64,000 nucleotides of DNA from an uncultured Candidatus Saccharibacteria bacterium (GTDB lineage: Bacteria > Patescibacteriota > Minisyncoccia > Phycocordibacterales > Zambryskibacteraceae), in NCBI GenBank assembly GCA_964342515.1, contig CAYFFP010000001.1, positions 78,204-142,203 of the forward strand, in the 5' to 3' direction. Made by a program: the position numbers and the translations under genes. The notes beneath the pieces are model-generated. The model saw only the letters and a list, made by a program, of their open reading frames with translations, made no database searches and was not told the origin of the DNA. Of this stretch, positions 9,397 to 55,414 are shown piece by piece. The stretch's first letter is position 1, and every line of letters starts with the position of its first letter.

Positions 9397-10985
9397 TGGT
9401 AATTACAAAATCAGATTATGTTTTATGGAGGGAATGTCCTCATAACTCTTGGGTAAAAAAGTGGAAGCCTGATCTTTATCACTCATCTCCATTGTCAGAC
9501 TTCGAGAAGCACCTGATTAATTCCGGAAATATGGTCGAGGAGACAGCTCGATTAAGATTTCCAGAGGGGGTGCTTATTAAAAGTAAGGGTGACGAAGCTT
9601 TAAGTAAAACTCAGGAGTTTTTAAAAAGCGATTCCGGTACTATTTTTCAAGCCTCGTTTTCAGATGGGACTCTTTTCGCCGCAGTAGATATTTTAAAACA
9701 CACTGGAAGCAAAGGGATGCAGCTTTATGAGGTTAAGGCTTCTAATTCATCAAAAACAGAATCAGAGGAGGACGAGATTAATAATGATGGAGATGAAGTA
9801 GTTAACAAGCTTGATCCAAAAGCATTAGAAAAGTACAAGAAGGAACTACTTAAGGACCACCATCTCTACGACCTTGCTTTTCAGGTCTACCTAGCCCGTA
9901 AGATTGGTCATAAGGTTACCGGGGCGTACCTTATGAGGTTGAATAAACAATATGTACGCGCTGGAGAGATTGATCTAAACAAACTTTTTGTAATTGAAGA
10001 CGTGCTTTCTTATGTCGACGAGGTACTTCCAAGAGTTAAGGAGGACATACAAATCTTAACCAAAATCCTTACTTCTTCTAGTGAACCAAAAGGGCCTTGT
10101 TGTTGTCTTAATAAAGGCAGATCCAATCATTGCACCACTTTTGCGATCCACAATAAGGATGTTCCATCCTACAGCGTCCATGACCTTACGGCTATTGGAA
10201 GAAGTAAGAAGAAACTAGATGAACTGATTGATTCTGGAATATACGACATTTTAGACATACCTGACGGTTTTGAATTTGGTAAGAAAATCCAAAAGCAAGT
10301 AGAGGTGCATAAGCGAGGCAAGGATTCTATTGATTACGAAACAATAGAGAGTGAACTTAAGACATTGCAATTTCCCCTTTACTTTCTTGACTACGAATCA
10401 TTTAATCCTGCTATACCACGTTTTTCTGGTTACAAACCATATCAACACATGCCTTTTCAGTTTTCAGTACACAGATTAGATAAACCAGATGGCGATCTAA
10501 TACATTCTGAATTTCTTTATACCGGCACAGAAGATCCAAGTCCTCTTTTTGTAGAAGCCTTAAAGAAAGCTATTGGTAAAAGCGGCAATATAATCGTGTG
10601 GTATAAACCTTTTGAAGAATCGCATATAAATAAAAAGATAGCTATTCGTATTCCCGAATGTGCTGATTTTATAAATGATTTAAACTCTCGCATGTTTGAC
10701 CTTATGACTATTTTTTCTAAACAGCTCCATATTCATCCAGATTTCCATGGTAGTGCCTCTATCAAAAAGGTCTTACCAGTTATATGTCCAGAACTTTCTT
10801 ATAAAGAAATGGAGATTGGTAATGGATCGGAAGCAATGAATACCTGGAATAAGTTAGTTATGGAAGAAGTATCAGATAAAGAGCGTCTAGGAGTAGAAAA
10901 GAATATGCTTGAATATTGTGGGCTCGATACATACGCCATGTATAAAATTTGGAAACATCTCATAGAGTTGAATAGCCACATATGA
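9396..10985 (+). CDS. DUF2779-family predicted nuclease (PD-(D/E)xK/Cas4-like N-terminus with Cys cluster, C-terminal exonuclease-like half)
   Basis: Start overlaps the helicase stop (TAATG). N-terminus KSDYVLWRECPHNSW resembles the DUF2779 SKS.F..G.QCPKRLW signature. EVKAS and DLAFQ blocks and a CCCLNKGRSNHC Cys cluster are present. Confidence 0.6.
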   Translation: MVITKSDYVLWRECPHNSWVKKWKPDLYHSSPLSDFEKHLINSGNMVEETARLRFPEGVLIKSKGDEALSKTQEFLKSDSGTIFQASFSDGTLFAAVDILKHTGSKGMQLYEVKASNSSKTESEEDEINNDGDEVVNKLDPKALEKYKKELLKDHHLYDLAFQVYLARKIGHKVTGAYLMRLNKQYVRAGEIDLNKLFVIEDVLSYVDEVLPRVKEDIQILTKILTSSSEPKGPCCCLNKGRSNHCTTFAIHNKDVPSYSVHDLTAIGRSKKKLDELIDSGIYDILDIPDGFEFGKKIQKQVEVHKRGKDSIDYETIESELKTLQFPLYFLDYESFNPAIPRFSGYKPYQHMPFQFSVHRLDKPDGDLIHSEFLYTGTEDPSPLFVEALKKAIGKSGNIIVWYKPFEESHINKKIAIRIPECADFINDLNSRMFDLMTIFSKQLHIHPDFHGSASIKKVLPVICPELSYKEMEIGNGSEAMNTWNKLVMEEVSDKERLGVEKNMLEYCGLDTYAMYKIWKHLIELNSHI

Positions 10986-11815
10986 AATATTTAAAGATAT
11001 TAGGAATATCAGTATCAGTCATCCTTATCCTGCTTGTAGTTATCGGATTCTCTCTAGGTAATCCAGAGTCAAATAAATTTTCTAGCTCGCAGGAAGTAAG
11101 CCAGGACATACCGGATAAGGAGCAAGTTCAGCAAACGGCTGCTGTAGAGACTGCAGAGCTGGATGTACCGGGAAGTCAAGGACCATATCAAGTAATCAAA
11201 GTGGTTGATGGCGATACCATAACGATTGATCTGAACGGCAAAGCGGAAACAATCCGGCTTATTGGCATCAATACTCCAGAAACAGTTGATCCAAGAAAGC
11301 CGGTGGAATGTTTCGGCGTAGAGGCTTCAAACAAGGCCAAAGAACTTTTAACAAACAAGCGCGTGTATATTGAGATGGACCCGACCCAAGGAGAGCGAGA
11401 CAAATACAGTCGCTTGCTTGCATATGTATATCGTGAGGACGGATTCTTCTTTAATAAGTCCATGATCCTTAGTGGCTATGCTTACGAATATACCTACAAC
11501 ATCCCCTATAAATACCAGAGTGAATTTAAGGAAGTACAGAGAAATGCCGAAATCAATCAAAGAGGCTTATGGGCTCCTGGTGTCTGTGAAGAAAAAGAAG
11601 CTACGCCAACACAGCAATCTACGCCGACACCTACACCTACGCAACCAACCCAATCAACTTCCGGATATTCATGCTCGGCAAATACATACAACTGCACAGA
11701 CTTCTCCACTCATGCCGAAGCTCAATCTGTTTATGAAATGTGCGGAGGGATAAATAACGATATTCATAGGCTTGATCAAGATAAAGATGGTGAAGCTTGT
11801 GAATCTTTGCCGTAG
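10982..11815 (+). CDS. Secreted thermonuclease (staphylococcal nuclease/SNase-like) with C-terminal Excalibur Ca-binding domain
   Basis: ATGA start/stop overlap with the upstream gene. N-terminal TM/signal. Block VDGDTITIDLNGKAETIRLIGINTPE...RLLAYVY...QRGLWA matches the SNase fold. C-terminus DQDKDGEACESLP is the Excalibur DxDxDGxxCE motif. A Thr/Pro/Gln linker separates the two. Confidence 0.8.
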   Translation: MKYLKILGISVSVILILLVVIGFSLGNPESNKFSSSQEVSQDIPDKEQVQQTAAVETAELDVPGSQGPYQVIKVVDGDTITIDLNGKAETIRLIGINTPETVDPRKPVECFGVEASNKAKELLTNKRVYIEMDPTQGERDKYSRLLAYVYREDGFFFNKSMILSGYAYEYTYNIPYKYQSEFKEVQRNAEINQRGLWAPGVCEEKEATPTQQSTPTPTPTQPTQSTSGYSCSANTYNCTDFSTHAEAQSVYEMCGGINNDIHRLDQDKDGEACESLP

Positions 11816-12581: not shown

Positions 12582-12654
12582 GGGCCCTTAGCTTAGTTGG
12601 TAGAGCGCCGCATTTGCAATGCGGAGGTCGGGAGTTCGAATCTCCCAGGGTCCA
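12582..12654 (+). tRNA. tRNA-Ala(TGC)
   Basis: Acceptor GGGCCCT/AGGGTCC with G3:U70. D-arm GCTT-AGTTGGTAG-AGCG. Anticodon arm CCGCA-TTTGCAA-TGCGG. T-arm GGGAG-TTCGAAT-CTCCC. Discriminator A, then CC. Confidence 0.85.
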
Positions 12655-12661
12655 CCGTTTT

Positions 12662-13423: not shown

Positions 13424-14323
13424 CTAAATAACCAAGTCATTCAGTGGGTGTTTGTTCATTTGCAACCTCAAATGCTCTGCGCTGGCAGAAAGGTAAATTG
13501 TGGTTGTCTTGATGTCACTGTGTCCCATTAGTCTAGAGAGGGAGAATATATCACAGCCACCAGTTAGCATTAATGTAGCATAAGTATGCCTTAGCTTATG
13601 AATTGTAAAATTGATTTTGGAAGTTTCTTTTATTTTTCTTACTAGATTTCTGAGTCCCATGTCTGTAAATCCACAATTCCGGTTGAGCGATGCAAAAAAT
13701 TCTGGACAAGTCTTATTGAGTCGTTTTCGCTCGTCCAAATAGCGTTTTAGGCTCTGGGCCAACGCGCTACACATTGGTATTATTCGATCCTTGCCACCTT
13801 TGCCTTGGTTGACGAATATGCTCAGATTTTCCACGTCTACATCGGTGTATTTCAATTTCAAAAGCTCTTTCTTTCGCAAGCCGGAGAAAAGGAAGGTTGA
13901 AAATATGGCGTGATTTCTATATCTCAAAAATTTGTAGTCGTAGGGGTAGTTATAAACAACCTCAACGAGCTTGAGAGCATCTTGTTTGGTTAGGCAGGAT
14001 GGCAGACGTTTTTCCACCTTGGGTATTTCCAGATCATCAGCTGGATTCTTTGTCAGATATTTTTCACTCACGCACCACTTAAAAAATACCGTCAGAGAAT
14101 GGTAGAAACAAATAAATGAGTTAGGTTTCCAGTTGCGTTTGGTCCTGCCGTTGAAAAAGAATTGTCGGACATTTTCTTCCGTCACTTGTTCTATTTCCGA
14201 AACTTCTGCCAACCTCGAGTACAAGTTGATCGCTTGTCTATATCGTCGAATCGTTGCTGGTCTGTAGCCACGCATATACAACGAATAATCGTAAAACTTC
14301 TGAGCCAATATTTGTATATTCAT
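13424..14323 (-). CDS. Tyrosine site-specific recombinase/integrase (phage-integrase family)
   Basis: C-terminal block HKLRHTYATLMLTGGCDIFSLSRLMGHSDIKTTTIYL carries the His/Arg/Tyr catalytic motifs. It lies adjacent to tRNA-Ala genes and a truncated tRNA copy. Confidence 0.85.
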   Translation of the reverse strand: MNIQILAQKFYDYSLYMRGYRPATIRRYRQAINLYSRLAEVSEIEQVTEENVRQFFFNGRTKRNWKPNSFICFYHSLTVFFKWCVSEKYLTKNPADDLEIPKVEKRLPSCLTKQDALKLVEVVYNYPYDYKFLRYRNHAIFSTFLFSGLRKKELLKLKYTDVDVENLSIFVNQGKGGKDRIIPMCSALAQSLKRYLDERKRLNKTCPEFFASLNRNCGFTDMGLRNLVRKIKETSKINFTIHKLRHTYATLMLTGGCDIFSLSRLMGHSDIKTTTIYLSASAEHLRLQMNKHPLNDLVI

Positions 14324-14630: not shown

Positions 14631-14701
14631 GGGCCTATGGTATAGTAGTAACACGCGTCCATGGCATGGACGAGTCGGGGGTGCGATTCCCCCTAGGTCC
14701 A
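14631..14701 (+). tRNA. tRNA-Ala(GGC), non-canonical T-loop (TGCGATT)
   Basis: Acceptor GGGCCTA/TAGGTCC with G3:U70. Anticodon arm CGTCC-ATGGCAT-GGACG gives anticodon GGC. T-arm GGGGG-TGCGATT-CCCCC. Confidence 0.65.
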
Positions 14702-14711
14702 CACGCGTCTT

Positions 14712-14785
14712 GGGCCTATAGTTTAGTAGCAGAACACGGCATTCGCATTGCCGAGACTCGAGTGCGATTCTCGATAGGTCCACCA
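14712..14785 (+). tRNA. tRNA-Ala(CGC) with encoded CCA
   Basis: Acceptor GGGCCTA/TAGGTCC. Anticodon arm CGGCA-TTCGCAT-TGCCG. T-arm TCGAG-TGCGATT-CTCGA. A-CCA is followed immediately by ATG of the next gene. Confidence 0.65.
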
Positions 14786-25436: not shown

Positions 25437-25625
25437 ATGGAATTTCTTACAAACGATGAAGTTGCAGAAGCTCTAAGAGTAAACCCAAGAACAGTAGATC
25501 GCTGGCTGAATAAGGGGTTGATGGAAGGTTACAAACTTGGAAAAGGGAAGACTGCTCTCTGGCGTATACCTAAGGGTGAAGTTAAAAGATTTTTGGAGAA
25601 GCATAGAAATAGAAAAAAGAAATGA
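25437..25625 (+). CDS. Excisionase/MerR-type HTH DNA-binding protein (putative recombination directionality factor)
   Basis: LTNDEVAEALRVNPRTVDRWLNKGLMEGYKLGKG...WRIPKGEV. Lies immediately upstream of and overlapping the serine recombinase (ATGA). TATATAAT at 25422-25432. Confidence 0.55.
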   Translation: MEFLTNDEVAEALRVNPRTVDRWLNKGLMEGYKLGKGKTALWRIPKGEVKRFLEKHRNRKKK

Positions 25626-27259
25626 ATCAGGACTTATCAAAAATAGAGAAACTGACAGCAACCTATTACAGAGTCTCAACTTCTAATCAGGAAGAAGCAC
25701 AAACAATCCAGACTCAGATTTCTGCTGTCAAAGAATTTGCTAGTAAGAATCATATAAAAATTATCCAAGAGTATATGGATGACGGCTGGAGTGGAGATAC
25801 ACTGATAAGACCCGCTCTAGATCAGTTAAGAGTAGATGCTAGAAAGAAAATGTGGGAAGCAGTTTTAGTCTATGATCCAGATAGACTGGCTAGACGTTAC
25901 TCTTATCAGGAGCTGGTAATGGATGAACTTAAGGAGGCTGGTATTGAGGTAATTTTTGTAACCACTCCTGCTCCTAAAAATAGCGAAGACAAGATCTTAC
26001 ATGGGGTAAAAGGCCTATTTGCTGAGTACGAAAGGGCGAAAATATCAGAAAGATTCAGATTAGGTAAACTGAGAAAGGCAAAGGAAGGACACATCATGAC
26101 ATCGGAAGCTCTTTACGGGTATAGATATATTCCAAGAATAGATAAAGAACAGGGTCGTTATGAAATAAATGAAGAAGAAGCAAGAGTTGTGAAAATGATT
26201 TTCAAATGGGTGGGTGAGGAGGGTCTAACGCTTCGTGCTGTAGTGAAAAGATTGATGGATGTGAAGATTAGACCAAGAAAAAGTAAGAAGGGTGTATGGG
26301 CTACCAGCACGTTAACAACGATGCTTAGACATAAAGGCTATATCGGAGAAGCTCATTGGGGGAAATCATACGCTGTTGTGCCAGAGAATCCATATAAGAT
26401 TGAAAAGTATCGTAAGCAGAAAAAATCTAGTCGCAGGGATCGTCCAGAGGAGGAGTGGTATATCATTCCAATACCTAGAATTATAGATAGAGAATTATTC
26501 GAACGTGTTCGAAAGCAGTTACAAGTGAACTTCGCTTTGTGCAAGCGTAATAAGAGGAATGATTATCTTTTAGCAAGTAAAATATGGTGTTCTTGTGGTT
26601 CTAGAAGGTGTGGTTGTGGACCACAAAAGGGTAAGCATCTCTATTATCGATGTAATGACAGAATTAAAAGCTTTCCACTTCCTGCTAAATGTAAAGAGGG
26701 AGCAGTAAATGCCAGAATCGGTGATCAGTTAGTATGGGAAAGGGTGGCGAATTTAATGAGTTCACCAGAATTATTATTGAAGCAGGCAGAGAGGTGGTTA
26801 AATAATCGTCAAAGTAAAAAAGTATCATCATTGACTGACATCAAGGACTTAGAAAAGGAATCAAAAAAGCTCAAGGATCAAGAAGAGCGATACAATAAAG
26901 CTTATGGGGTAGGTCTACTAAGTATGGAACAGTTGAGAGATTACACCATACCCATCAGAGAAAGGTTGGGGGTTGTCGATTCACAAATAATAAAGACTAA
27001 AGAAGAGAACAATCAAATAGTTTCAATGGGTATGCCGAGCAAGAAAGAAGTGGAGATCTTTGCAAAGGTAGCATCCAGAAAATTACGAAACTTGAATTTC
27101 GAACTGAAACGGGAGATAGTATTGAGCACTGTAGAGAAGGTTGTTGGAAACCAAGAAAAGCTACAAGTTTATGGATATATACCAATAAATCATGTCTTAT
27201 TCAGCTCTGAGTATCGGCATTGTCGGGCTGCCGAACGTGGGGAAGTCCACGCTCTTTAA
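25622..27259 (+). CDS. Large serine recombinase (integrase) with resolvase catalytic domain, recombinase domain, zinc ribbon and coiled coil
   Basis: [10 protein letters not shown] supplies the catalytic Ser. DRLARR. Cys cluster [11 protein letters not shown]...YYRCN. A coiled-coil follows. The 3' end reads 68 nt into ychF in another frame. Confidence 0.85.
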
Positions 27260-28048: not shown

Positions 28049-28324
28049 ATGAAAACGATGCTTAATGTAAAAACCGATAGCAAACTTAAGAAAGACGCTC
28101 AAAGAACAGCCAAAGAAGCGGGTATACCTATAAGTTTAGTTGTAAATAGTGCTCTGAAGAAGTTCGTGGCGCAGCGCTCAATTATTATAGAAGCGCCGCT
28201 TATTCCTAATGCCAAAACGGCTAAAATTCTCGACAGAGCTTTGAAGGACATTAAAGCTGGTAAAAATCTTTCTCCTGTATTTAAGACTGCGGCAGAAATG
28301 GATCGCTATCTTAATTCTTTATGA
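28049..28324 (+). CDS. RelB/DinJ-family antitoxin
   Basis: KTDSKLKKDAQRTAKEAGIPISLVVNSALKKF is the ribbon-helix-helix DinJ pattern. Overlaps the toxin gene (ATGA). Confidence 0.6.
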   Translation: MKTMLNVKTDSKLKKDAQRTAKEAGIPISLVVNSALKKFVAQRSIIIEAPLIPNAKTAKILDRALKDIKAGKNLSPVFKTAAEMDRYLNSL

Positions 28325-28581
28325 ACCCCGAACTTCATCGTAGTTTCAACAAAGATTATAAAAAACTTCCAGAAAAATTAAAAAGACAATTTAAAATCCG
28401 AAGAAACCTATTTTTAGGAAACCCATTTAACCGTATTCTCAATAACCACGAGCTTCATGGCAGTTATGAAGATTGTAGGAGCATCAACATTACCGGCGAC
28501 TATCGCGCCGTCTATTTTATGAAAAAAGATGCGGCCATTTTTATCCGCATAGGCACTCACAGCGAATTGTTTGGAAAGTGA
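28321..28581 (+). CDS. YafQ/RelE-family mRNA interferase toxin
   Basis: HELHGSYEDCRSINITGDYRAVYF...IFIRIGTHSELF matches the YafQ C-terminal signature (RtGtHsdLF). Confidence 0.65.
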   Translation: MNPELHRSFNKDYKKLPEKLKRQFKIRRNLFLGNPFNRILNNHELHGSYEDCRSINITGDYRAVYFMKKDAAIFIRIGTHSELFGK

Positions 28582-28595
28582 TATAATCAAACATC

Positions 28596-29174
28596 ATGCA
28601 AAACACAGTCACAAAGTGGTCGGTAATTTTAGGTATCGTTATAGTGCTTAACTTGTTTTTCAACTACACGATTTCTCTAGTTTATGAGAGACCGGATTAC
28701 GAAGATTACTGCCCGCAGTCGCAAGTAGTGGTCGTGCCAGATACGCAGGAGGAGTGCGTGGCGGAAGGCGGACAATGGACTGACAACGCCTATTACAGCA
28801 AGCCCATTCGTCCGGAATTCCCGGAGCCAGTTGGCTACTGCGACCTTCAATACACTTGCAGACAGGAATACGAATCAGCCCACGATACTTATCAAAGAAA
28901 TGTTTTCGTCGTCTTGGTAGTGCTTGGTGCGCTCTCGGTCCTGGTTGGCTCCGCCAGCTGGCGGATTTTCAGGGGTAATGTGGTGATATCCAACGGTCTC
29001 TCGCTGGCCGGATTATTCTCCTTCATCATCGCCAGCATCCGCTACTGGGGCTCGGCAGATAATCTGATCAGAGTTATAATCCTCGCCATCGCATTGGGAA
29101 TCCTCTTCTGGATTGCGATGAAAAAATTCAATGACCAAAATGACCGAGTACGACCCGAAGGAAATAGAGAGTAA
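28596..29174 (+). CDS. Hypothetical membrane protein with Cys-rich extracytoplasmic region
   Basis: 192 aa, N- and C-terminal TM helices. Confidence 0.4.
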   Translation: MQNTVTKWSVILGIVIVLNLFFNYTISLVYERPDYEDYCPQSQVVVVPDTQEECVAEGGQWTDNAYYSKPIRPEFPEPVGYCDLQYTCRQEYESAHDTYQRNVFVVLVVLGALSVLVGSASWRIFRGNVVISNGLSLAGLFSFIIASIRYWGSADNLIRVIILAIALGILFWIAMKKFNDQNDRVRPEGNRE

Positions 29175-31908
29175 ATGGCAGAAAAATTGGGAAGAATCTG
29201 GTATTTACCGCGCGGAGGATAAGTCGAAGAAGCCAAAGTATTATACCCTCATAGAATTTCCGTATCCGTCGGGAGATGGGCTACATGTCGGACATCCGCG
29301 TCCTTACATTGGACTGGATGTTGTATCACGCAAGCGCAGGATGCAGGGTTACAACGTGCTTTATCCCATTGGCTGGGACGCTTTCGGCTTGCCCACAGAA
29401 AATTACGCGATAAAGACCGGCAAAGATCCGCGGCAGGTAACGAAAGAAAATACAAATACCTTCCGCCGGCAAATCCAATCTCTCGGCATCTCTTTCGATT
29501 GGTCAAGAGAGATTAATACTACCGACCCAAAGTATTACAAATGGACGCAATGGATTTTCTTAAAACTACTTGAGCACGGCTTGGCTTACAAAGCCAAGAT
29601 TCCGGTCAACTGGTGCCCGAAAGACAAAATTGTTTTGGCCAATGAAGAAGTGGTGAATGGCTGCTGCGAACGTTGCGGTACGCCGGTAGAACAGAAGGAG
29701 AGGGAGCAATGGATGCTCGCTATTACCAAATACGCGGACAGATTACTCTCCGGTCTCGATGAGGTTGATTATCCGGAGCGGGTGAAAGTTCAGCAGAGGA
29801 ATTGGATAGGAAAGTCTGAAGGGGCTCTCATTAAGTTCGACGATATAGAAGTTTTCACTACTCGGCCGGACACAATTTTCGGCGCGACTTTCTTGGTGAA
29901 AGCGGGCAAAGAAGATAAATTTACCGGAGAGTACGTAACTAATCCAGTGACCAAAGAAAAAATTCCTGTCTGGGAAGCGGAATATGTGTATTCCGACTAT
30001 GGCACAGGCGCGATCATGGCCGTGCCCGCTCATGATGAGCGTGATTATGAGTTTGCAAAGAAGCACGACATCCCGATACGACAAGTTATTATCCCTAAGT
30101 ACACTGATCCAAGTAACCCACATCGAGAAGGCAAAGAAACAGTTTTTAGAAACGCTGTAATTGTAATTCTTCGAAATCCGAAAACAGCTGAAATTCTTAC
30201 TTTAAAATGGAAGAAGTTACCTTGGACTACATTTGTAATGGGGGGCATTGAAAAAGAAGAAACTCCTGAACAAGCCGCTGTTAGAGAGATATTAGAAGAG
30301 ACGGGATACAAGAATGTAAGAATCATAAAACTTCTAGGTGGCCAGATACACAATGAATTTTTCGCCGAGCATAAAAATGAGAATCGAATTGTGCATACTC
30401 AGGGAATATTTGCTGAGCTTGTAGATGAGGAGCGAGAGAAAATTTCTCAGGAAGAAGGGGATAAATATGAAATTGAATGGATTAAAGAAATAGAAGTTGA
30501 TCCTAGAGATCTTAAGCATACTGAAGCAGAAGAATTATTGAGAAGAATAAATGTGGATGAATCGTATATCGGAGAGGGTTTGCTTATAAATTCTAATGGA
30601 TTTGACGGACTTACATCAGAAGAGGCCAGAGAGAAGATTACCGAAAAATTCGGCAAAAAGGTTATTAAGTACAAATTGCGTGATTGGGTCTTCTCCCGCC
30701 AGCGCTATTGGGGAGAGCCGATACCGGTGGTGCACTGCGAGAAATGTGGAGTTGTTGCCGTTCCCGAATCAGAACTTCCGGTAAAGTTGCCGGAAGTGAA
30801 GAATTATCAGCCGACCGATACTGGTGAATCGCCTTTAGCAAATATTAAAGAGTTTGTTGACACCGAGTGTCAACAGTGCGGGGGAAAGGCCAAGAGGGAA
30901 ACGGACGTGATGCCCAATTGGGCGGGTTCCTCGTGGTATTTCTTACGCTACACCGATCCGCATAATGATAAGGAGTTTGCATCAATGGAAAAATTGAAAT
31001 ACTGGATGGGGGATGCCAGCTTGCCCCGTACCGAGCGAAGCTCTGGTACTGGGGTGGATTGGTACAACGGCGGGATGGAGCATACTGTGCTTCACCTTCT
31101 CTACTCGCGCTTCTGGAATAAATTCCTTTTCGACATCGGTGCGGTACCGGTAGATGAGCCGTACAAGAAACGTACTTCCCATGGATTGATTCTCGCCGAA
31201 GGCGGGGAGAAAATGAGTAAGTCCAAGGGCAACGTCATCAATCCCGACTCGATCGTTCTACGCTTCGGCGCTGACACTCTGCGTTTGTATGAGATGTTTA
31301 TGGGACCCTTCGAGCAGGCAATCGCGTGGAATGACAGCTCGCTTGTGGGACCGAGAAGATTTCTTGAAAAAATTTGGAGACTACGGGAGAAACTTCCGAC
31401 CTCACCCGGCTTTCAGCCACCCTCTCCTAGCGCAAGGAGAGGGGCAGGGGGTGAGGTGAATTTTCATCAAGCTATCAAAAAAGTTTCCGACGATATCGAG
31501 ACGCTTGGATTTAACACGGCCGTCTCGACTCTAATGATCTTTGCTAATGATCTGGATAAGAAAGAAAAAATTTCAAAAGAAGAATACGAAACTTTGCTCA
31601 AGCTTCTCGCGCCGTTCGCGCCACACATGACAGAAGAGTTATGGCATGAACTTGGACATAAAGATTCGATACATGAAGAAGAGTGGCCGACTTACGATGA
31701 AACAAAACTTGTGCCAGAGACTGTTACGATTGTGGTTCAGGTCAACGGCAAGGTAAGGGGCAAATTTGCGGCCAGAGCAAATTTGAAAGAAAAAGAAATC
31801 CTAGAGAAAGCGAAGGAGTTGCCGGAAATACAAAAGTGGCTTGGGGACAAAAAAGTGGAGAAGTCAATTTATGTGCCGAAAAAATTGATAAATTTCGTCG
31901 TAAAATAG
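29131..31908 (+). CDS. leuS: Leucyl-tRNA synthetase with inserted NUDIX hydrolase domain
   Basis: HIGH region PYPSGDGLHVGH. Editing motif TTRPDT. AVPAHDERDYEFA. KMSKS present. C-terminus VQVNGKVRGKF. A perfect Nudix box GGIEKEETPEQAAVREILEETGY lies at approx 30235-30303, inside an AT-rich segment (approx 30120-30560). Confidence 0.9.
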   Translation: MTKMTEYDPKEIESKWQKNWEESGIYRAEDKSKKPKYYTLIEFPYPSGDGLHVGHPRPYIGLDVVSRKRRMQGYNVLYPIGWDAFGLPTENYAIKTGKDPRQVTKENTNTFRRQIQSLGISFDWSREINTTDPKYYKWTQWIFLKLLEHGLAYKAKIPVNWCPKDKIVLANEEVVNGCCERCGTPVEQKEREQWMLAITKYADRLLSGLDEVDYPERVKVQQRNWIGKSEGALIKFDDIEVFTTRPDTIFGATFLVKAGKEDKFTGEYVTNPVTKEKIPVWEAEYVYSDYGTGAIMAVPAHDERDYEFAKKHDIPIRQVIIPKYTDPSNPHREGKETVFRNAVIVILRNPKTAEILTLKWKKLPWTTFVMGGIEKEETPEQAAVREILEETGYKNVRIIKLLGGQIHNEFFAEHKNENRIVHTQGIFAELVDEEREKISQEEGDKYEIEWIKEIEVDPRDLKHTEAEELLRRINVDESYIGEGLLINSNGFDGLTSEEAREKITEKFGKKVIKYKLRDWVFSRQRYWGEPIPVVHCEKCGVVAVPESELPVKLPEVKNYQPTDTGESPLANIKEFVDTECQQCGGKAKRETDVMPNWAGSSWYFLRYTDPHNDKEFASMEKLKYWMGDASLPRTERSSGTGVDWYNGGMEHTVLHLLYSRFWNKFLFDIGAVPVDEPYKKRTSHGLILAEGGEKMSKSKGNVINPDSIVLRFGADTLRLYEMFMGPFEQAIAWNDSSLVGPRRFLEKIWRLREKLPTSPGFQPPSPSARRGAGGEVNFHQAIKKVSDDIETLGFNTAVSTLMIFANDLDKKEKISKEEYETLLKLLAPFAPHMTEELWHELGHKDSIHEEEWPTYDETKLVPETVTIVVQVNGKVRGKFAARANLKEKEILEKAKELPEIQKWLGDKKVEKSIYVPKKLINFVVK

Positions 31909-37739: not shown

Positions 37740-38155
37740 TCAATCCATTTCTTACTTTAGTCATCGCATTGCTTCTTGGTTCAGCTCTCGGTCTCGAAAG
37801 AACTTTGGCCCACAAGGTCGCGGGCGTGCGCACCTATGGACTGGTCTCTATGGGTTCATGCCTCTTTATTCTCATTGCCAGATATGTCATCACGGTGGCG
37901 CAGAACACTGCCTACGACCCGTTGCGCATGGCGGCGGCCATTATCATGGGAATCGGCTTCCTGTGCGGCGGCGTGATTATCTTCAAGGACTCGACGCTGC
38001 AGGGACTGACCACGGCGGCCGGGCTCTGGGTAGCGGCCGGCATCGGCATGGCCATAGGATACGGACTGGTAATTCTTGCCATCTTTGCCACCGTTACCAC
38101 CTTGGTGGTCTTTACTCTTTTTTGGTTTATTGAACATAAACTTATCAAAAAGTGA
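37736..38155 (+). CDS. MgtC/SapB family membrane protein
   Basis: LGLERTLAHKVAGVRTYGLVSMGSCLF...GIGFLCGGVI...AAGLWVAAGIGMAIG. Confidence 0.7.
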   Translation: MINPFLTLVIALLLGSALGLERTLAHKVAGVRTYGLVSMGSCLFILIARYVITVAQNTAYDPLRMAAAIIMGIGFLCGGVIIFKDSTLQGLTTAAGLWVAAGIGMAIGYGLVILAIFATVTTLVVFTLFWFIEHKLIKK

Positions 38156-38736
38156 GTGACCGCACGGAAGAGTTGAAGAAAATCAGAGACGAAGTTATCG
38201 CCCTGACTTCCTCGCCGCTCTATCAAGAGCGGGTAAAAAATAATTATTTTCCCGTCATCGGGGAAGGGAATCACGATGCGGAGATAATGTTTATCGGCGA
38301 AGCGCCGGGGGAAAATGAGGCCAAGACCGGCCGGCCCTTCTGCGGCCGGGCGGGGCAGGTGCTCGACAAACTTCTGGAATCTGTCGGCATCGACAGGAAA
38401 AGCGTTTATGTCACCAACATCGTCAAAGACCGCCCGCCCAGCAATCGCGACCCTAGCCCTGAAGAAATTGCCGCTTACGCGCCGTTCTTGGACAGGCAGG
38501 TTGAAATCATCAAGCCGAGGGTCGTCGCCACTCTCGGCCGTTTCTCCATGCAATACGTGATGAACCGTTATGGTCTCGAGTGGGAAATAGCACCCATAAG
38601 TCTCTTGCATGGCAAGGTCTTTCAAGCAAAAGACTTCAAATTCATCCCTCTCTATCATCCCGCCGCCGCTATCTATAACCAAGAGCTTTTAAAAACTCTT
38701 GAGAACGATTTCCAAATTTTAAAGACCGTGGTATAG
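38152..38736 (+). CDS. Uracil-DNA glycosylase, family 4
   Basis: GEGNHDAEIMFIGEAPGENE...GRPFCGRAGQVLDKLL. GTG start as in the ORF track. Confidence 0.75.
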   Translation: MSDRTEELKKIRDEVIALTSSPLYQERVKNNYFPVIGEGNHDAEIMFIGEAPGENEAKTGRPFCGRAGQVLDKLLESVGIDRKSVYVTNIVKDRPPSNRDPSPEEIAAYAPFLDRQVEIIKPRVVATLGRFSMQYVMNRYGLEWEIAPISLLHGKVFQAKDFKFIPLYHPAAAIYNQELLKTLENDFQILKTVV

Positions 38737-38911
38737 TTCGTAGCGGAGGAGTTTTATGTCTTTGGAGCTGACCAGACTGAAGTTCCGCTTTCTCATAAGG
38801 AGACAGCTCTGGCGGTTCAGGGCGGTTTGCTTATGGATGCGGATCTACGATAGCATCGACGACATGGTGAGGTCTTGAGAAGGGCCTCACCATTTATGTT
38901 ATATTCATTTA

Positions 38912-40033
38912 ATGCAATCGAGAGAGATACGGGAGAAATTTCTGAAATTTTTTGAAGAGAGGGGACACACTATTGTTCCCTCATCTTCACTTGTGCCGAA
39001 GGATGATTCCTCCGTCCTCTTCACCACCGCGGGCATGCAGCAGTTCAAGCCATACTACATCGGCGGGGCCGATGTAGTAAAAGATTTCGGCTCTTCTAAT
39101 CTCGCCTCGAGCCAGAAATGCGTCAGAACTTCCGATATAGAAGAGGTCGGAGACGCCAGCCACCTGACATTTTTTGAGATGCTCGGTAATTTCTCCTTCG
39201 GGGATTATTGGAAAAAGGAAGCCATCGAGTGGGCCCACGAGTTTATTACTAAGGAACTTAGACTTACGATTGGTTACGTCTCGGTTTTCTCTGGAGAAAA
39301 TGATGTGTCGGAAGACAAAGAGTCGGAAGGAATCTGGAAATCAATTGACCCGAATATTGTTGTCAAGAAATTCGGCAGAAGCGATAATTTCTGGGGCCCG
39401 ACAGGGGAGGAAGGTCCTTGCGGCCCGACGACGGAGATCTATGTCGACGGCATAGAAATCTGGAACATTGTTTTCAACGAGTATTATCAAGATAAAGCTA
39501 AAAAGCTAACGAAGCTGACGAAGCCGGGTGTCGATACCGGCATGGGGCTTGAGCGATTGGTGAAGGTGGCGCAAAAAGTTGGAACGGTTTTTGAAACGGA
39601 TTTATTTAAACCAATCATGGAAAAAACAGATTCAAGAATTATTGCCGACCACATCCGCACCTCCTGCTTTATGATTGCCGACGGCGTCGCTCCGTCCAAT
39701 ACCGACAGGGGATATATCCTCCGCCGGCTACTGCGCCGCGCCTATGTCAAGAATAAGAACGTCTACCCGGTGATCGATGCCGTCGTTAACCATCCGAGTT
39801 ATCAAGGCCTTTACACTTTTGCTCCAAATACCAAAGAAATCGTCAGGCAAGAACTCGATAAATTCGAGGAAGCGCTCGAGCAAGGTTTGAAGCAGGTGAA
39901 AAAGGGCGCCGACCCATTCATCCTCTTTACCACATACGGCTTGCCGCCTGATATAATTGAGGAAGTCACGACAATAGATAAAGAAAAGTTTAAGAAACAG
40001 ATGGAAGAGCATAAACGGATTTCCAAGTTGTGA
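38912..40033 (+). CDS. alaS: Alanyl-tRNA synthetase catalytic (aminoacylation) domain only; split or truncated AlaRS
   Basis: Collinear with E. coli AlaRS residues approx 1-445: FTTAGMQQFK, HLTFFEMLGNFSFGDYWK, DNFWGPTGEEGPCGPTTEIY, VDTGMGLERL, IADHIR...IADGV.PSN..RGYILRRLLRRA. It stops before the tRNA-recognition, editing and C-Ala domains. Confidence 0.8.
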   Translation: MQSREIREKFLKFFEERGHTIVPSSSLVPKDDSSVLFTTAGMQQFKPYYIGGADVVKDFGSSNLASSQKCVRTSDIEEVGDASHLTFFEMLGNFSFGDYWKKEAIEWAHEFITKELRLTIGYVSVFSGENDVSEDKESEGIWKSIDPNIVVKKFGRSDNFWGPTGEEGPCGPTTEIYVDGIEIWNIVFNEYYQDKAKKLTKLTKPGVDTGMGLERLVKVAQKVGTVFETDLFKPIMEKTDSRIIADHIRTSCFMIADGVAPSNTDRGYILRRLLRRAYVKNKNVYPVIDAVVNHPSYQGLYTFAPNTKEIVRQELDKFEEALEQGLKQVKKGADPFILFTTYGLPPDIIEEVTTIDKEKFKKQMEEHKRISKL

Positions 40034-40045
40034 TATAATTTATTT

Positions 40046-41350
40046 ATGCCGAGAAAAGTCGAAGATATCATCGTGCCGGAAAGGAAGAGGAGCATCAGAA
40101 ACATTCCTATTCCCGAAAACCGGAAAAGACACTCGGTGTCTGGGGCTCCCTCGACACCGAGTGTCGGAAAAGAAGAGCCCTACAATCCGGTGCCGCCGCG
40201 CCGTTTAGAGCGGCCGCGGCGCGGCTTTCGCAAAAGAATCTGGCTCTCGAGCGGCGTCGGAGCGTTGATTTTAATATTTGCGGCGCTCTCGCTCTGGAAC
40301 GGCGCCACGCTCTCATATGTGCCGCGCTCTACGGCGCTTGCCTTCAACAACGAAGTCTATACGGCAAGGAAGACGTCCGAAAACGGCCTGCTCTACAGCG
40401 TAGTCAAGCTCTCGGGAGAAAAGAGCGATGTCGTACCGGCCGAGGGTGAACAAAGCGTGGAGAGAAAGGCGAGCGGCACTATCGTTGTCTACAACAACGC
40501 GACAGTAGAGTCGCAGCGGCTAATAGAGAATACCCGCTTCGAATCTCCCGAAGGGAAAATTTACCGGATCGCCAAAGCCATCAGCATCCCCGGCAAAACC
40601 GGCTCCAACCCCGGTGCTCTGGAAGTGATAGTGTACGCTGACGAAGCGGGAGAATCTTATAATACGGGACTGACGGACTTCACCGTGCCCGGACTCAAGG
40701 GCACGGCGCGCTACTCTACAATTTACGCGCGCTCGAAGACTCCCATAACAGGAGGCTTCGTCGGGCAAGAGAAGGTGGTCAGTCCGGCCGATACTCTCAA
40801 AGTCAAGACGGAACTCCAAACTCTCTTAAGCAAAGAACTGCTTGCCAAGGCGGCTCTGGAAGTGCCGGACGACTTTATCCTCTTCCCCGCTCTCTCCTCG
40901 GTGATATTTGAAGATCTCGTTCAGACTACAACCAGCAATGCAAACAGCGCCGCGGTAAATCTCAAGGCCAATCTCTACGGAATCATGTTTAAGAAGAGCG
41001 ACCTTGGGAAGGAGCTCTCCAAGAATAAGGCCACTATCGGCGAGACTGACCGCGTGGAACTCGAGTCCTTTGATTCTCTCAATATTTCATTTGCCGGCGC
41101 GGCTCCGACTGATCTCGTCTCCGCGACCCAGATTAACTTCAAAGTCTCCGGCAACACAAAACTTTTCTGGCTGACGGACGAAGTGGCGCTCAAATCAGAT
41201 TTGGCCGGCCGACCGAAGAGAGAGATTTCCGCCATTCTCAAAAATTACCCGACGATCTTCTCGGCGGACGCGACCGTCAGACCGTTCTGGAAAACATCAT
41301 TCCCGGACAATGCTCAAAAGATTTCCATAAAGAAATTGAAAGTAGAATAA
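40046..41350 (+). CDS. Hypothetical membrane-anchored protein
   Basis: 434 aa, TM near residue 75; not AlaRS-related. Confidence 0.45.
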   Translation: MPRKVEDIIVPERKRSIRNIPIPENRKRHSVSGAPSTPSVGKEEPYNPVPPRRLERPRRGFRKRIWLSSGVGALILIFAALSLWNGATLSYVPRSTALAFNNEVYTARKTSENGLLYSVVKLSGEKSDVVPAEGEQSVERKASGTIVVYNNATVESQRLIENTRFESPEGKIYRIAKAISIPGKTGSNPGALEVIVYADEAGESYNTGLTDFTVPGLKGTARYSTIYARSKTPITGGFVGQEKVVSPADTLKVKTELQTLLSKELLAKAALEVPDDFILFPALSSVIFEDLVQTTTSNANSAAVNLKANLYGIMFKKSDLGKELSKNKATIGETDRVELESFDSLNISFAGAAPTDLVSATQINFKVSGNTKLFWLTDEVALKSDLAGRPKREISAILKNYPTIFSADATVRPFWKTSFPDNAQKISIKKLKVE

Positions 41351-54172: not shown

Positions 54173-55414
54173 ATGATACAAGGATTCGTACACGCGCTAA
54201 GAATTCAATCTAAGATTATTTTTATCGTGGTAAGGAATCTTAAGGGTCTTACTCAAGTAGTGGTGACGGCAGAGAACTCCGAATTTGAAAGGGCGAAGAA
54301 TCTTACTCTTGAGTCGGTAATCCGTGTGACGGGTAAGATGGTCGATGCGCCGCAGGCGCCCGGAGGAAGCGAAATGCACCCAGAAAAAATTGAAATTTTG
54401 TCCGCGGCAGCGCCGGAGCTACCGATTCCCGTAGTGGTAAAAGGTTCTGATGAAGAGACCGAAGCTCCTACTCGATTCGATTACCGCTGGCTTGACTTGA
54501 GAAAGCCCGAGAAGGCAAAAATATTTAAAGTCTGGACCGAGTTCGAGAAGGGATGGAGAAAATATTGGGACGAGAACAATTTCATCCAGCTCTACCCACC
54601 GGCGCTAATGAGCACGCCGAGCGAGTCCGGAGCGGAAGTATTTGAGGTTAAGTATTTCGACCGGAAGGCCTACCTTGCCCAGTCGCCGCAATTCTACAAG
54701 CAGATGGCTATGGCGGCAGGGTTTGAGAAAGTCTTTATGGTCTCGCCAGTCTTCCGCGCCGAAGAGTCCTTTACCACTCGCCACATGACGGAATTTACCG
54801 GCTGGGACTTTGAGATTTCATATATCAAAGACCACAATGATGTTATGGACGCCGAAGAAGGGATGATAATCGCAGGATTCAAACAGCTTAAAGAAAAGTT
54901 TCCGGAATTAGATATAACAATACCAACGCGACCATTTCCGAGATTTACAATGGTTGAGGCGAAAAAGATTTTGAATAAGCTCGGTGTCGAATCTCCCGAT
55001 GAGCATGACCTTTCACCCGAAGAAGAAAGGGTGATTTCCGAATATATACTCAAGGAAAAGAATCATGAGTTTGTGTTTATCACTGAATATCACAAATCCA
55101 AATCAGCGTTCTATCACATGCGTATCGCGAGCGACCCTGAGCGAAGTCGAAGGGCTGATTTATTATACAGAGGTATAGAAGTTACCACTCTTGCCCAGCG
55201 TGAACATAGACCAGAGATACTCGAGAAACAGGCGAAGGAGAAGGGGATGGACCTCGAGTCGCTCAAAGACTACCTCAACTTCTTCCGCTACGGCTGTCCT
55301 CCGCATGGCGGCGCCGGTATCGGTCCCGGCCGCTTCATTATGAAAATCCTCGACCTTCCGAATGTCCGCGAAGCCACTTATCTTCCGCGTGATGTTAGAA
55401 GATTGAATCCGTAA
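54173..55414 (+). CDS. Class IIb aminoacyl-tRNA synthetase, archaeal/eukaryotic-type AspRS-like (AspRS or AsnRS)
   Basis: N-terminal OB anticodon-binding fold. Motif 2 FRAEESFTTRHMTEFTGWDFE. Motif 3 GCPPHGGAGIGPGRFIM. 413 aa. Confidence 0.7.
   Translation: MIQGFVHALRIQSKIIFIVVRNLKGLTQVVVTAENSEFERAKNLTLESVIRVTGKMVDAPQAPGGSEMHPEKIEILSAAAPELPIPVVVKGSDEETEAPTRFDYRWLDLRKPEKAKIFKVWTEFEKGWRKYWDENNFIQLYPPALMSTPSESGAEVFEVKYFDRKAYLAQSPQFYKQMAMAAGFEKVFMVSPVFRAEESFTTRHMTEFTGWDFEISYIKDHNDVMDAEEGMIIAGFKQLKEKFPELDITIPTRPFPRFTMVEAKKILNKLGVESPDEHDLSPEEERVISEYILKEKNHEFVFITEYHKSKSAFYHMRIASDPERSRRADLLYRGIEVTTLAQREHRPEILEKQAKEKGMDLESLKDYLNFFRYGCPPHGGAGIGPGRFIMKILDLPNVREATYLPRDVRRLNP

What the first reader, a model, noticed from the sequence alone, without database searches (positions are those of the whole stretch)
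38912..40033. Stand-alone AlaRS catalytic domain (split or truncated alanyl-tRNA synthetase)
The ORF aligns collinearly with the AlaRS aminoacylation domain (about E. coli residues 1-445) and then terminates. The next gene is unrelated, so the tRNA-recognition, editing and C-Ala domains are not encoded here. Minimal AlaRS fragments recognising the G3:U70 pair are known, and split alaS genes occur in some reduced genomes. This window carries three or four tRNA-Ala genes, all with G3:U70, making it a good test case.
Basis: partly seen in the sequence, partly recalled or inferred. Interest (0 to 1): 0.6.

Follow-up and report, generated by a model that had tools for sequence, protein, structure and literature searches.

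The report
Bacterial alanyl-tRNA synthetase without proofreading domain
This candidate-phyla-radiation bacterium, like a whole clade of its relatives, makes an alanyl-tRNA synthetase with only the charging and tRNA-recognition domains; the proofreading domain, usually regarded as universal, was cleanly deleted and no free-standing replacement was found in the sequence I could reach.

Summary
ORF 38912-40033 (+) encodes a 373-aa protein that matches the AlaRS aminoacylation fragment end to end (Pfam PF01411 E 3e-98; E. coli N441 residues 4-434; AF2 model TM 0.80-0.86). It stops in the linker before the editing domain.

It is not a frameshift or misassembly. About 45 orthologues (59-78% identity, several labelled Candidatus Zambryskibacteria) stop at the same place and form one clade. 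The three editing-less loci whose surroundings I read, this window and two relatives, share the same gene neighbourhood.

The closest relatives outside that clade carry a ~535-aa "small-AlaRS" at the same position. It has the same core plus a ~160-aa AlaX-S-like editing core and no C-Ala. The editing core was therefore deleted in situ from an already minimal enzyme.

The alanine-site residues and the Asn that reads U70 are invariant. The Asp that reads G3 is Thr, as in the Tupanvirus mini-AlaRS. The window's three tRNA-Ala genes all have G3:U70.

No free-standing editing gene was found in any sequence I could reach. The whole genome could not be searched, so "truncated" is supported, an adjacent split gene is excluded, and a distant trans-editing factor remains open.

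The parts
38912..40033 (+). alaS gene for a 373-aa mini-AlaRS (aminoacylation and tRNA-recognition domains only), with TGA stop at 40031-40033
   Evidence: ORF. Pfam PF01411 E 2.9e-98. PDB AlaRS catalytic fragments E 1e-63 to 3e-73. AF2 pLDDT 86.6 and Foldseek TMq 0.80-0.86.
38912..39574 (+). Class II catalytic core (about aa 1-221). It holds the alanine-site residues R72, W161, N185, D208 and G210, which correspond to E. coli R69, W170, N212, D235 and G237
   Evidence: Residue mapping from the HMMER alignment to E. coli N441. All five residues are invariant in 113 relatives. The strand/helix order in the model fits the fold. The domain boundary is approximate.
39575..40030 (+). Helical tRNA-recognition domain (about aa 222-373), ending in a shortened remnant of the linker to the editing domain (...QMEEHKRISKL*)
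   Evidence: Aligns to E. coli residues ~250-434. The model is all-helical from residue 213 onward. Most orthologues end 8 aa later at ...AGEQKFKK*, where fused relatives continue ...KFKGGL-editing domain.
39698..39700 (+). Codon AAT = Asn263, equivalent to E. coli Asn303, which contacts U70 of the G3:U70 pair
   Evidence: Alignment. Invariant in 113 relatives. The role of the residue is taken from PMC10036535.
39929..39931 (+). Codon ACC = Thr340, at the position of E. coli Asp400, which contacts G3. The canonical Asp is replaced.
   Evidence: Alignment. Thr in all 47 editing-less proteins; T, S, A or E in the 66 fused relatives. Tupanvirus mini-AlaRS also has Thr at this position.
40046..41350 (+). 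Conserved downstream neighbour: a 434-aa predicted membrane-anchored protein that is not AlaRS-related. Its start 12 nt after the alaS stop marks the clean deletion boundary.
   Evidence: 56% identical to the gene that follows the fused alaS in L010, and 49% identical to the gene that follows the truncated alaS in L005. It has only a weak GlxA-barrel hit.
38152..38736 (+). Conserved upstream neighbour (uracil-DNA glycosylase family), used as a synteny anchor
   Evidence: Pfam PF03167 E 4.6e-35. The same gene lies upstream of alaS in L002, L005, L008 and L010.
12582..12656 (+). tRNA-Ala(UGC), a presumed substrate, with G3:U70 and A73
   Evidence: ARAGORN. Acceptor-stem pairing check.
14631..14702 (+). 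tRNA-Ala(GGC), a presumed substrate, with G3:U70 and A73
14712..14785 (+). tRNA-Ala(CGC), a presumed substrate, with G3:U70, A73 and an encoded CCA

Best explanation
The ORF is the organism's housekeeping alaS. It is the positional orthologue of the ~535-aa 'small-AlaRS' of Parcubacteria (catalytic domain, tRNA-recognition domain and an AlaX-S-sized editing core, with no beta-barrel and no C-Ala). In the ancestor of a clade that includes Candidatus Zambryskibacteria, the ~160-aa editing core was deleted right after the linker motif KFK. What remains is a 373-408-aa mini-AlaRS. Inferred mechanism: the protein activates alanine with the unchanged AlaRS active site. It reads the G3:U70 pair of the three tRNA-Ala species through the retained recognition domain (Asn263 kept; Thr340 in place of the canonical Asp). 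It charges tRNA-Ala without any cis proofreading and without the elbow-binding and dimerising C-Ala domain. Ser- or Gly-tRNA-Ala is then either tolerated or cleared by an unlinked factor that I could not find. Shown: domain content, conservation, clade structure, synteny and absence of an editing sequence nearby. Inferred: catalytic activity, sole-copy status and the lack of trans-editing.
For: Domain content and fold. The gene is not an artefact: the same DNA appears in two other assemblies. 47 of the 120 best database relatives lack the editing domain, and nearly all end at ...KFK[KN]*. The P0030 orthologue was seen on 22 contigs from NCBI, JGI and ENA. Purifying selection: 114 of 373 positions are invariant across 45 editing-less proteins that are only 59-78% identical. 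All alanine-site residues and the Asn303 equivalent are invariant. Single loss: 45 of 47 editing-less proteins form one pure clade in an NJ tree. In-situ deletion at the orthologous locus: the order mnmA - PaaX_M - ATP-cone/Mrr - (MgtC) - UDG - alaS - conserved 410-455-aa protein - infA - rpsM - rpsK - rpsD - rpoA is shared by the window, two editing-less relatives (L005, L096) and fused relatives (L010, L008, L002). What was lost: the missing piece aligns over its full length to AlaX-S (PDB 1v4p) and to the editing core of archaeal AlaRS. Precedent for function: the Tupanvirus mini-AlaRS has the same two domains and Thr at the Asp position, charges G3:U70 tRNA-Ala efficiently and rescues a yeast ALA1 knockout (PMC10036535). 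Substrates: three tRNA-Ala genes with G3:U70. No editing gene was found.
Against: No biochemical data exist for this protein. The E. coli fragment N461, which has the same domain content, binds tRNA-Ala poorly and does not complement in yeast (PMC10036535), so activity without C-Ala is not automatic. Only about 68 kb of a genome probably several hundred kb long could be read, so a second alaS, an AlaX or a DTD elsewhere is not excluded. I found no clade-specific substitutions in the catalytic part that would suggest compensation for lost editing. The NJ tree is a simple distance tree; one complete editing-less protein (P0042) and one contig-end fragment (P0084) fall outside the main clade.
Confidence: 0.75

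Rival explanations
1. Functionally split AlaRS. The 373-aa protein is the alpha part, and a free-standing editing protein (a relocated beta part or an unrelated AlaX, possibly helped by DTD for Gly-tRNA-Ala) is encoded elsewhere and proofreads in trans. This differs from the best explanation only on whether editing persists.
For: AlaRS editing is otherwise retained even in the minimal small-AlaRS: 80 of 80 species-level Parcubacteria genomes examined have it fused and intact. This suggests strong selection for it in this group. Free-standing AlaX proteins are widespread (review PMC11415595). Rare relatives carry an in-frame stop in or just before the linker, giving adjacent alpha and beta ORFs (L004 and L014), so separate halves can arise.
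Against: There is no editing-domain sequence in the 64-kb window or in the extra 4 kb beyond its right edge. In all three editing-less loci examined, the conserved neighbour follows alaS within 12-15 nt. Among the 120 best short database proteins with this domain, the seven whose genomic context I read (six clusters) were contig-edge fragments, a scaffold gap, or ORFs created by an in-frame stop within a fused gene. None of the best 80 genome hits is free-standing or labelled Zambryskibacteria. A relocated vertical descendant should have scored among these hits. A distant AlaX would not have been seen.
Confidence: 0.3
2. Sequencing or assembly artefact: a frameshift or premature stop in a longer alaS.
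For: Such artefacts do exist among relatives, for example a scaffold gap in L003 and in-frame stops in L002, L004 and L014.
Against: No reading frame downstream has any similarity to AlaRS. Only 12 nt separate the stop from the conserved neighbouring gene. The same architecture is found in about 45 orthologues from many samples and assemblers.
Confidence: 0.01
3. A decaying or redundant copy: the real AlaRS is a second gene elsewhere, and this one is a relic on its way to loss.
For: NCBI names these proteins 'alanine--tRNA ligase-related protein'. The C-terminal linker remnant is variable and is further shortened in this window.
Against: The gene sits at the ancestral alaS position in the conserved block around the ribosomal-protein and rpoA genes. 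114 positions and every active-site residue are invariant across a clade that has diverged to about 60% identity. That is not compatible with decay.
Confidence: 0.04
4. A neofunctionalised AlaRS-like enzyme, for example an Ala-tRNA or alanyl-adenylate supplier for a non-ribosomal process, rather than the translational synthetase.
For: Truncated aaRS paralogues with other roles are known in bacteria (general knowledge, not tested here).
Against: The positional orthology with housekeeping alaS and the unchanged active site and recognition domain argue against it. So does the absence of clade-specific substitutions relative to the fused enzymes. There are no biosynthetic neighbours.
Confidence: 0.03

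Closest known systems
Tupanvirus mini-AlaRS (TuAlaRS; Antika et al., Commun Biol 2023, PMC10036535)
   Same: [quoted passage not shown] Both have Thr at the position of the G3-contacting Asp. In both, the presumed substrates carry G3:U70.
   Different: TuAlaRS is viral, 461 aa and derived from its eukaryotic host's AlaRS. It has also lost the U70-contacting Asn (it has Pro there). The protein here is cellular, bacterial and 373 aa, keeps the Asn, arose independently from a CPR small-AlaRS, and is inherited through a whole clade. TuAlaRS activity has been demonstrated; activity here is only inferred.
'small-AlaRS' of CPR, DPANN and Asgard (bioRxiv 10.1101/2023.05.29.542759)
   Same: Its closest sequence relatives (57-68% identity) are of this type and occupy the same genomic locus. 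Both share the 4-residue deletion of the GGKH loop, the compact recognition domain, and the lack of the beta-barrel and C-Ala.
   Different: small-AlaRS is defined as keeping the editing domain. Here that domain (~160 aa) is gone.
Split AlaRS of Nanoarchaeum equitans (alpha and beta subunits)
   Same: In both, an AlaRS N-terminal part is encoded as its own gene in a reduced genome.
   Different: The N. equitans alpha subunit ends inside the tRNA-recognition domain and needs beta for activity and G3:U70 specificity, and beta carries the editing domain and C-Ala. Here the recognition domain is complete and no beta gene was found.
Engineered E. coli AlaRS fragments N441/N461 (PDB 3hxu and related)
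   Same: The domain boundaries are the same, with end-to-end alignment and TMq 0.82-0.83.
   Different: Those are laboratory truncations with weak tRNA binding. The protein here is a natural enzyme about 70 aa shorter, with several loop deletions.
Editing-defective aaRSs of Mycoplasma and microsporidia
   Same: Both are host-associated, reduced-genome organisms that have lost aaRS proofreading (review PMC11415595).
   Different: The cases the review describes are aaRSs with defective editing activity, and an AlaRS is not among its examples. From my own knowledge, not from that text, they concern LeuRS, ThrRS and PheRS with degenerate or point-mutated domains. Here the whole AlaRS editing domain is deleted. 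The window's LeuRS keeps its CP1 editing motifs.

Membership tests
Alanyl-tRNA synthetase (class IIc; Pfam PF01411 / TIGR00344) | AlaRS-type class II catalytic core | tested here: met
   PF01411 E 2.9e-98. Foldseek gives TMq 0.80-0.86 to AlaRS catalytic fragments, against 0.35-0.39 for GlyRS-alpha and PylRS.
Alanyl-tRNA synthetase (class IIc; Pfam PF01411 / TIGR00344) | Alanine-binding residues (E. coli R69, W170, N212, D235, G237) | tested here: met
   R72, W161, N185, D208 and G210 are present and invariant in 113 relatives.
Alanyl-tRNA synthetase (class IIc; Pfam PF01411 / TIGR00344) | tRNA-recognition domain with the Asn/Asp pair that reads G3:U70 (E. coli N303/D400) | tested here: inconclusive
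   The domain is present and the Asn is kept (N263). The Asp is replaced by Thr340. TuAlaRS shows that the Asp is dispensable for G3:U70 specificity in at least one enzyme.
Alanyl-tRNA synthetase (class IIc; Pfam PF01411 / TIGR00344) | Editing domain (HxxxH ... CxxxH; PF07973) | tested here: not met
   There is no PF07973 hit in the protein and no tblastn hit anywhere in the window.
Alanyl-tRNA synthetase (class IIc; Pfam PF01411 / TIGR00344) | C-Ala domain and beta-barrel linker domain | tested here: not met
   The protein ends at PF01411 profile position 429 of 552. It scores 337 bits against the 457-bit TIGR00344 equivalog cut-off.
Alanyl-tRNA synthetase (class IIc; Pfam PF01411 / TIGR00344) | Aminoacylation of tRNA-Ala; only alaS in the genome | not testable with these tools
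   This needs an enzyme assay and the complete genome. Positional orthology with alaS of relatives supports it.
Natural mini-AlaRS (Tupanvirus type) | Only catalytic and tRNA-recognition domains, as a complete natural gene | tested here: met
Natural mini-AlaRS (Tupanvirus type) | Common descent with TuAlaRS (eukaryote-derived) | tested here: not met
   The nearest relatives are bacterial CPR small-AlaRS proteins at 57-68% identity. Bacterial PDB fragments score better (E 1e-63 to 3e-73) than human ones (about 1e-58). The architecture therefore arose independently.
small-AlaRS (CPR/DPANN/Asgard) | Catalytic domain, recognition domain and editing core; no barrel and no C-Ala | tested here: not met
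   The editing core is absent here. The protein is sister to or derived from this group by sequence and synteny.
Split AlaRS (N. equitans type) | A separate beta gene that supplies the rest of the recognition domain, the editing domain and C-Ala | tested here: inconclusive
   No such gene lies in the window or next to alaS in three genomes of the clade. The recognition domain is already complete in this protein. The rest of the genome was not searchable.

The most novel reading that the evidence does not exclude
A whole lineage of cellular organisms (Zambryskibacteria and allies) translates alanine codons with an AlaRS that has no proofreading at all, either in cis or in trans. That would contradict the view that AlaRS editing against serine and glycine is indispensable to cells. 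It would imply either tolerated Ala-to-Ser/Gly statistical mistranslation or an unknown way of avoiding it.
Probability: 0.4. Interest if true: 0.8.

Novelty: new variant of a known kind. Interest (0 to 1): 0.6.

Why it matters
AlaRS is described as the one synthetase that keeps the same four-domain prototype throughout biology (PMC10036535). From general knowledge of the field, its editing function, backed up by free-standing AlaX proteins, is regarded as essential because serine is unavoidably misactivated.

The only natural editing-less AlaRS that turned up in the literature I could search is viral. A vertically inherited, conserved editing-less AlaRS in free-replicating bacteria would be a natural experiment on two questions:
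- how much alanine-codon mistranslation a cell can bear;
- how a 373-aa enzyme binds tRNA-Ala without C-Ala.

It would also be among the smallest natural AlaRS known, which makes it attractive for structural and synthetic-biology work.

It also has a practical annotation consequence. Full-length alaS equivalog models such as TIGR00344 score these proteins below their cut-off, so the gene is easily reported as absent or only 'related' in this clade.

Tried and rejected
1. Frameshift or continuation. I checked all frames downstream and the whole window by tblastn with seven editing domains and found nothing. The next ORF lies in the same frame as alaS, which raised the idea of TGA read-through. 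I rejected it for three reasons: TGA ends 19 of the 64 long ORFs picked in the window, among them conserved genes such as dnaK and mnmA; in L005 the two genes are in different frames; and the neighbour is a separate conserved membrane protein.

2. Free-standing editing proteins in the protein database. 120 short hits looked promising, with recurrent lengths of 147, 158, 172 and 191 aa. I read the genomic context of seven of them (six clusters):
- three were cut by a contig end (L011-L013);
- one by a scaffold gap (L003);
- three were ORFs created by an in-frame stop inside a fused gene (L002, L004, L014).
None was a relocated gene.

3. Genome scan with the editing-domain profile. All of the best 80 hits are fused in frame to the catalytic part, and none is labelled Zambryskibacteria.

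4. Exhaustive representative search with an editing-only profile. The top 150 are mostly 5'-truncated fragments and carry no taxonomy, so the result was not informative.

5. Extending the contig. I obtained only 4 kb beyond the right edge (murG, gltX, a peptidase), with no AlaX or DTD.

6. Compensatory substitutions that separate editing-less from fused enzymes. None were found.

7. A regulatory RNA upstream of alaS. There is no Rfam hit, and in particular no T-box.

8. Literature. No paper in the held library describes an editing-less bacterial AlaRS.

Caveat on the tool: the search for homologous proteins seems to return only proteins up to about 1.75 times the query length. The longest hit was 579 aa and 284 aa, and P0029 did not find itself. 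Canonical ~870-aa AlaRS proteins were therefore never in view.

Full report
**What is there**

The ORF at 38912-40033 on the plus strand (ATG start, TGA stop, 373 aa) matches Pfam PF01411 (class II AlaRS). The E-value is 2.9e-98 over residues 5-372, which correspond to profile positions 1-429 of 552. It hits NCBIfam alaS (TIGR00344) at E 2e-100 but scores 337 bits against a 457-bit cut-off, as expected for a truncated member.

Against solved structures it aligns collinearly with the classic "catalytic fragments" of AlaRS: E. coli N441 residues 4-434, A. aeolicus residues 5-422 and human N455. An AlphaFold2 model built on 17 homologues has mean pLDDT 86.6 and pTM 0.85. It superposes on those fragments with TM 0.80-0.86 normalised to the query.

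These fragments, and this ORF, contain the catalytic core and also the helical tRNA-recognition domain. What is absent is the beta-barrel linker, the editing domain and C-Ala.

**It is not an artefact**

- The stop codon is followed 12 nt later by the start of an unrelated 434-aa gene.
- No reading frame in the window resembles an AlaRS editing domain. tblastn with seven editing domains from the closest long relatives gave a best E of 0.08.
- Identical DNA occurs in two other public assemblies.
- A database search returned 47 relatives without an editing domain among the best 120. They are 59-78% identical and 373-432 aa long, and six of them are named Candidatus Zambryskibacteria (Patescibacteria/CPR). 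Nearly all end at the same point...AGEQKFK[K/N]*.
- This is exactly where the longer relatives continue with ...KFKGGL and the editing domain. The window's protein ends 8 residues earlier (...EEHKRISKL*), so the linker remnant is eroding further.
- One orthologue (P0030) was seen on 22 contigs from NCBI, JGI and ENA.
- TGA is an ordinary stop codon here. It ends 19 of the 64 long ORFs picked in the window, among them conserved genes such as dnaK.

**Where it came from**

The next-closest proteins (57-68% identity) are about 535 aa long. They consist of PF01411 plus PF07973: the same compact core followed directly by a ~160-aa editing core with the HxxxH and CGGPH motifs, and no beta-barrel and no C-Ala.

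That architecture has been described as "small-AlaRS" in CPR, DPANN and Asgard (bioRxiv 10.1101/2023.05.29.542759). Its editing core aligns over its full length with the free-standing AlaX-S of Pyrococcus (PDB 1v4p) and with the editing core of archaeal AlaRS.

Gene order is conserved. The window, two editing-less relatives (L005 from GCA_001825145.1, and the deep-branching L096 from GCA_030697935.1) and fused relatives (L010, L008, L002) share this block: mnmA - PaaX_M - ATP-cone/Mrr - (MgtC) - UDG - alaS - a conserved 410-455-aa membrane protein - infA - rpmJ - rpsM - rpsK - rpsD - rpoA - rplQ.

The gene after alaS in the window is 56% identical to the one after the fused alaS in L010. It is 49% identical to the one after the truncated alaS in L005.

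In a neighbour-joining tree of the shared core, 45 of the 47 editing-less proteins form one pure clade next to the fused ones. The two exceptions are a contig-end fragment and one borderline sequence.

The simplest reading is a single, clean 3' deletion of about 480 nt at the orthologous housekeeping locus, inherited since then through considerable divergence.

**Is it a working synthetase?**

The sequence says yes; no experiment exists.

- Across 45 editing-less proteins, 114 of 373 positions are invariant.
- The alanine-pocket residues are invariant in all 113 relatives analysed. These are R72, W161, N185, D208 and G210, which correspond to E. coli R69, W170, N212, D235 and G237.
- The same holds for Asn263, the equivalent of E. 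coli Asn303, which contacts U70.
- The equivalent of Asp400, which contacts G3, is Thr340. It is Thr in all editing-less proteins and T, S, A or E in the fused ones.
- The Tupanvirus mini-AlaRS also has Thr at that position. It still discriminates G3:U70 and rescues a yeast ALA1 knockout (PMC10036535).
- All members of the small-AlaRS group aligned residue by residue (17 proteins, fused and editing-less) also lack four residues (GGKH) of the loop after the CVR motif.
- The window carries three tRNA-Ala genes (UGC, GGC and CGC). All have G3:U70 and A73.
- No substitutions distinguish the editing-less clade from its fused relatives. The core was therefore not visibly remodelled after the loss.
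- Because the fused ancestor already worked without C-Ala, the problem of binding tRNA without that domain was solved before the editing core disappeared. This last point is inference.

**Is editing supplied in trans?**

This is the open point, and it could not be settled.

- The window contains no PF07973-like sequence. Pfam scans of 45 of the window's longer ORFs found no DTD or YbaK-type protein.
- Four further kilobases beyond the right edge hold murG, gltX and a peptidase.
- A protein search with the editing core returned many short "stand-alone" hits. I read the genomic context of seven of them (six clusters). Each proved to be a contig-edge fragment, a scaffold gap, or an ORF created by an in-frame stop inside a fused gene.
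- In a scan of one genome per species, the best 80 editing-core hits are all fused in frame to a complete catalytic part. None is labelled Zambryskibacteria.
- A search against cluster representatives was dominated by fragments.

A relocated vertical descendant of the lost domain should have appeared in these searches, so a true alpha/beta split looks unlikely. A distantly related AlaX, or reliance on DTD for Gly-tRNA-Ala, cannot be excluded without the complete genomes.

I estimate about 0.3 that some trans-editing factor exists. I estimate about 0.4 that the lineage has no AlaRS-type proofreading at all.

**Comparison with what is known**

In function and architecture this is a natural mini-AlaRS like the Tupanvirus enzyme. 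It arose independently, from a bacterial CPR small-AlaRS rather than from a eukaryotic host gene. It keeps the Asn, is about 90 aa shorter, and belongs to cells rather than to a virus.

It is not a split AlaRS of the Nanoarchaeum type. That alpha subunit ends inside the recognition domain and depends on a beta subunit.

It does not meet the definition of small-AlaRS, because the editing domain is gone.

It resembles the editing-defective synthetases of Mycoplasma and microsporidia in ecological logic. Those are aaRSs with defective editing activity, and AlaRS is not among the review's examples.

The searchable literature holds no description of an editing-less bacterial AlaRS. NCBI merely labels such proteins "alanine--tRNA ligase-related protein".

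**Verdict**

This is a real, conserved, lineage-wide truncation of the housekeeping alaS to its aminoacylation and tRNA-recognition core. It is a new (cellular, bacterial) variant of a known kind. It deserves follow-up because it puts the supposed indispensability of AlaRS proofreading to a natural test. Interest is 0.6. It would be higher if whole-genome searches confirm that no AlaX is present.

Noticed in passing
window 29131-31908 (+): The LeuRS gene (925 aa) carries a NUDIX hydrolase domain (PF00293, E 1.8e-14, aa 339-470). It has a perfect Nudix box (GGIEKEETPEQAAVREILEETGY) and is inserted just after the CP1 editing motif ...AVPAHDERDYEFAKKHDIP. The orthologous LeuRS in Zambryskibacteria L005 is 745 aa and has no insert. 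I know of no described LeuRS-NUDIX architecture.
   Followed up: partly
window ~2000-31000: A block of lower G+C (36-42%, against 44-53% elsewhere) looks like one or more integrated mobile elements next to the tRNA-Ala genes. It contains a tyrosine integrase (13424-14323, minus strand) beside tRNA-Ala(UGC), and a large serine recombinase (25622-27259). It also holds a 1637-aa DUF4011/AAA_11/AAA_12/MTES_1575 helicase-nuclease (4483-9396), DUF2779 (9396-10985), a secreted SNase (10982-11815), and a small gene pair (28049-28581) at the position of a YafQ-type toxin gene in L005.
   Followed up: partly
window 38864-38893 (+): A 13-bp hairpin (ATGGTGAGGTCTT-GAGA-AGGGCCTCACCAT) followed by TTATGTTATA ends 18 nt before the alaS start codon, inside a 175-nt intergenic region. 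It could be a terminator for the upstream UDG gene or a regulatory element. It cannot be conserved in L005, where the intergenic region is only 18 nt. There is no Rfam or T-box hit.
   Followed up: partly
L004 353-358; L014 2334-2336; L002 ~5869-5871: Some Parcubacteria relatives carry a single in-frame stop in or near the linker between the recognition and editing domains. This gives adjacent alpha-like and beta-like ORFs (FEE*LKKHQ... with TAA in L004, a protein present in both JGI and ENA data; IDEK*LKAEI... with TGA in L014). They may be sequencing errors, pseudogenes or natural adjacent splits, and could be intermediates on the way to loss of the editing core.
   Followed up: partly
window 54173-55414 (+) and L095 11405-12577: Other synthetases in this genome are also unusually compact: a 413-aa class II Asp/Asn-type enzyme and a 390-aa GluRS-type enzyme. 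TrpRS (320 aa) and an asparagine synthase lie nearby.
   Followed up: no
protein P0171: A 218-aa database protein joins an N-terminal segment that looks, by eye only, like a P-II (GlnB) family protein (MKKIEAIVQPETKDAV...) to the AlaRS editing core. It may be a chimeric ORF or a real fusion. Its context was not examined.
   Followed up: no
window 40046-41350 (+): The conserved gene that always follows alaS in this group encodes a 410-455-aa protein of unknown function. It has a basic N-terminus, one predicted membrane helix and only a weak GlxA beta-barrel hit (E 1.3e-4, below the cut-off). It is 49-56% identical across the group and always precedes infA.
   Followed up: partly
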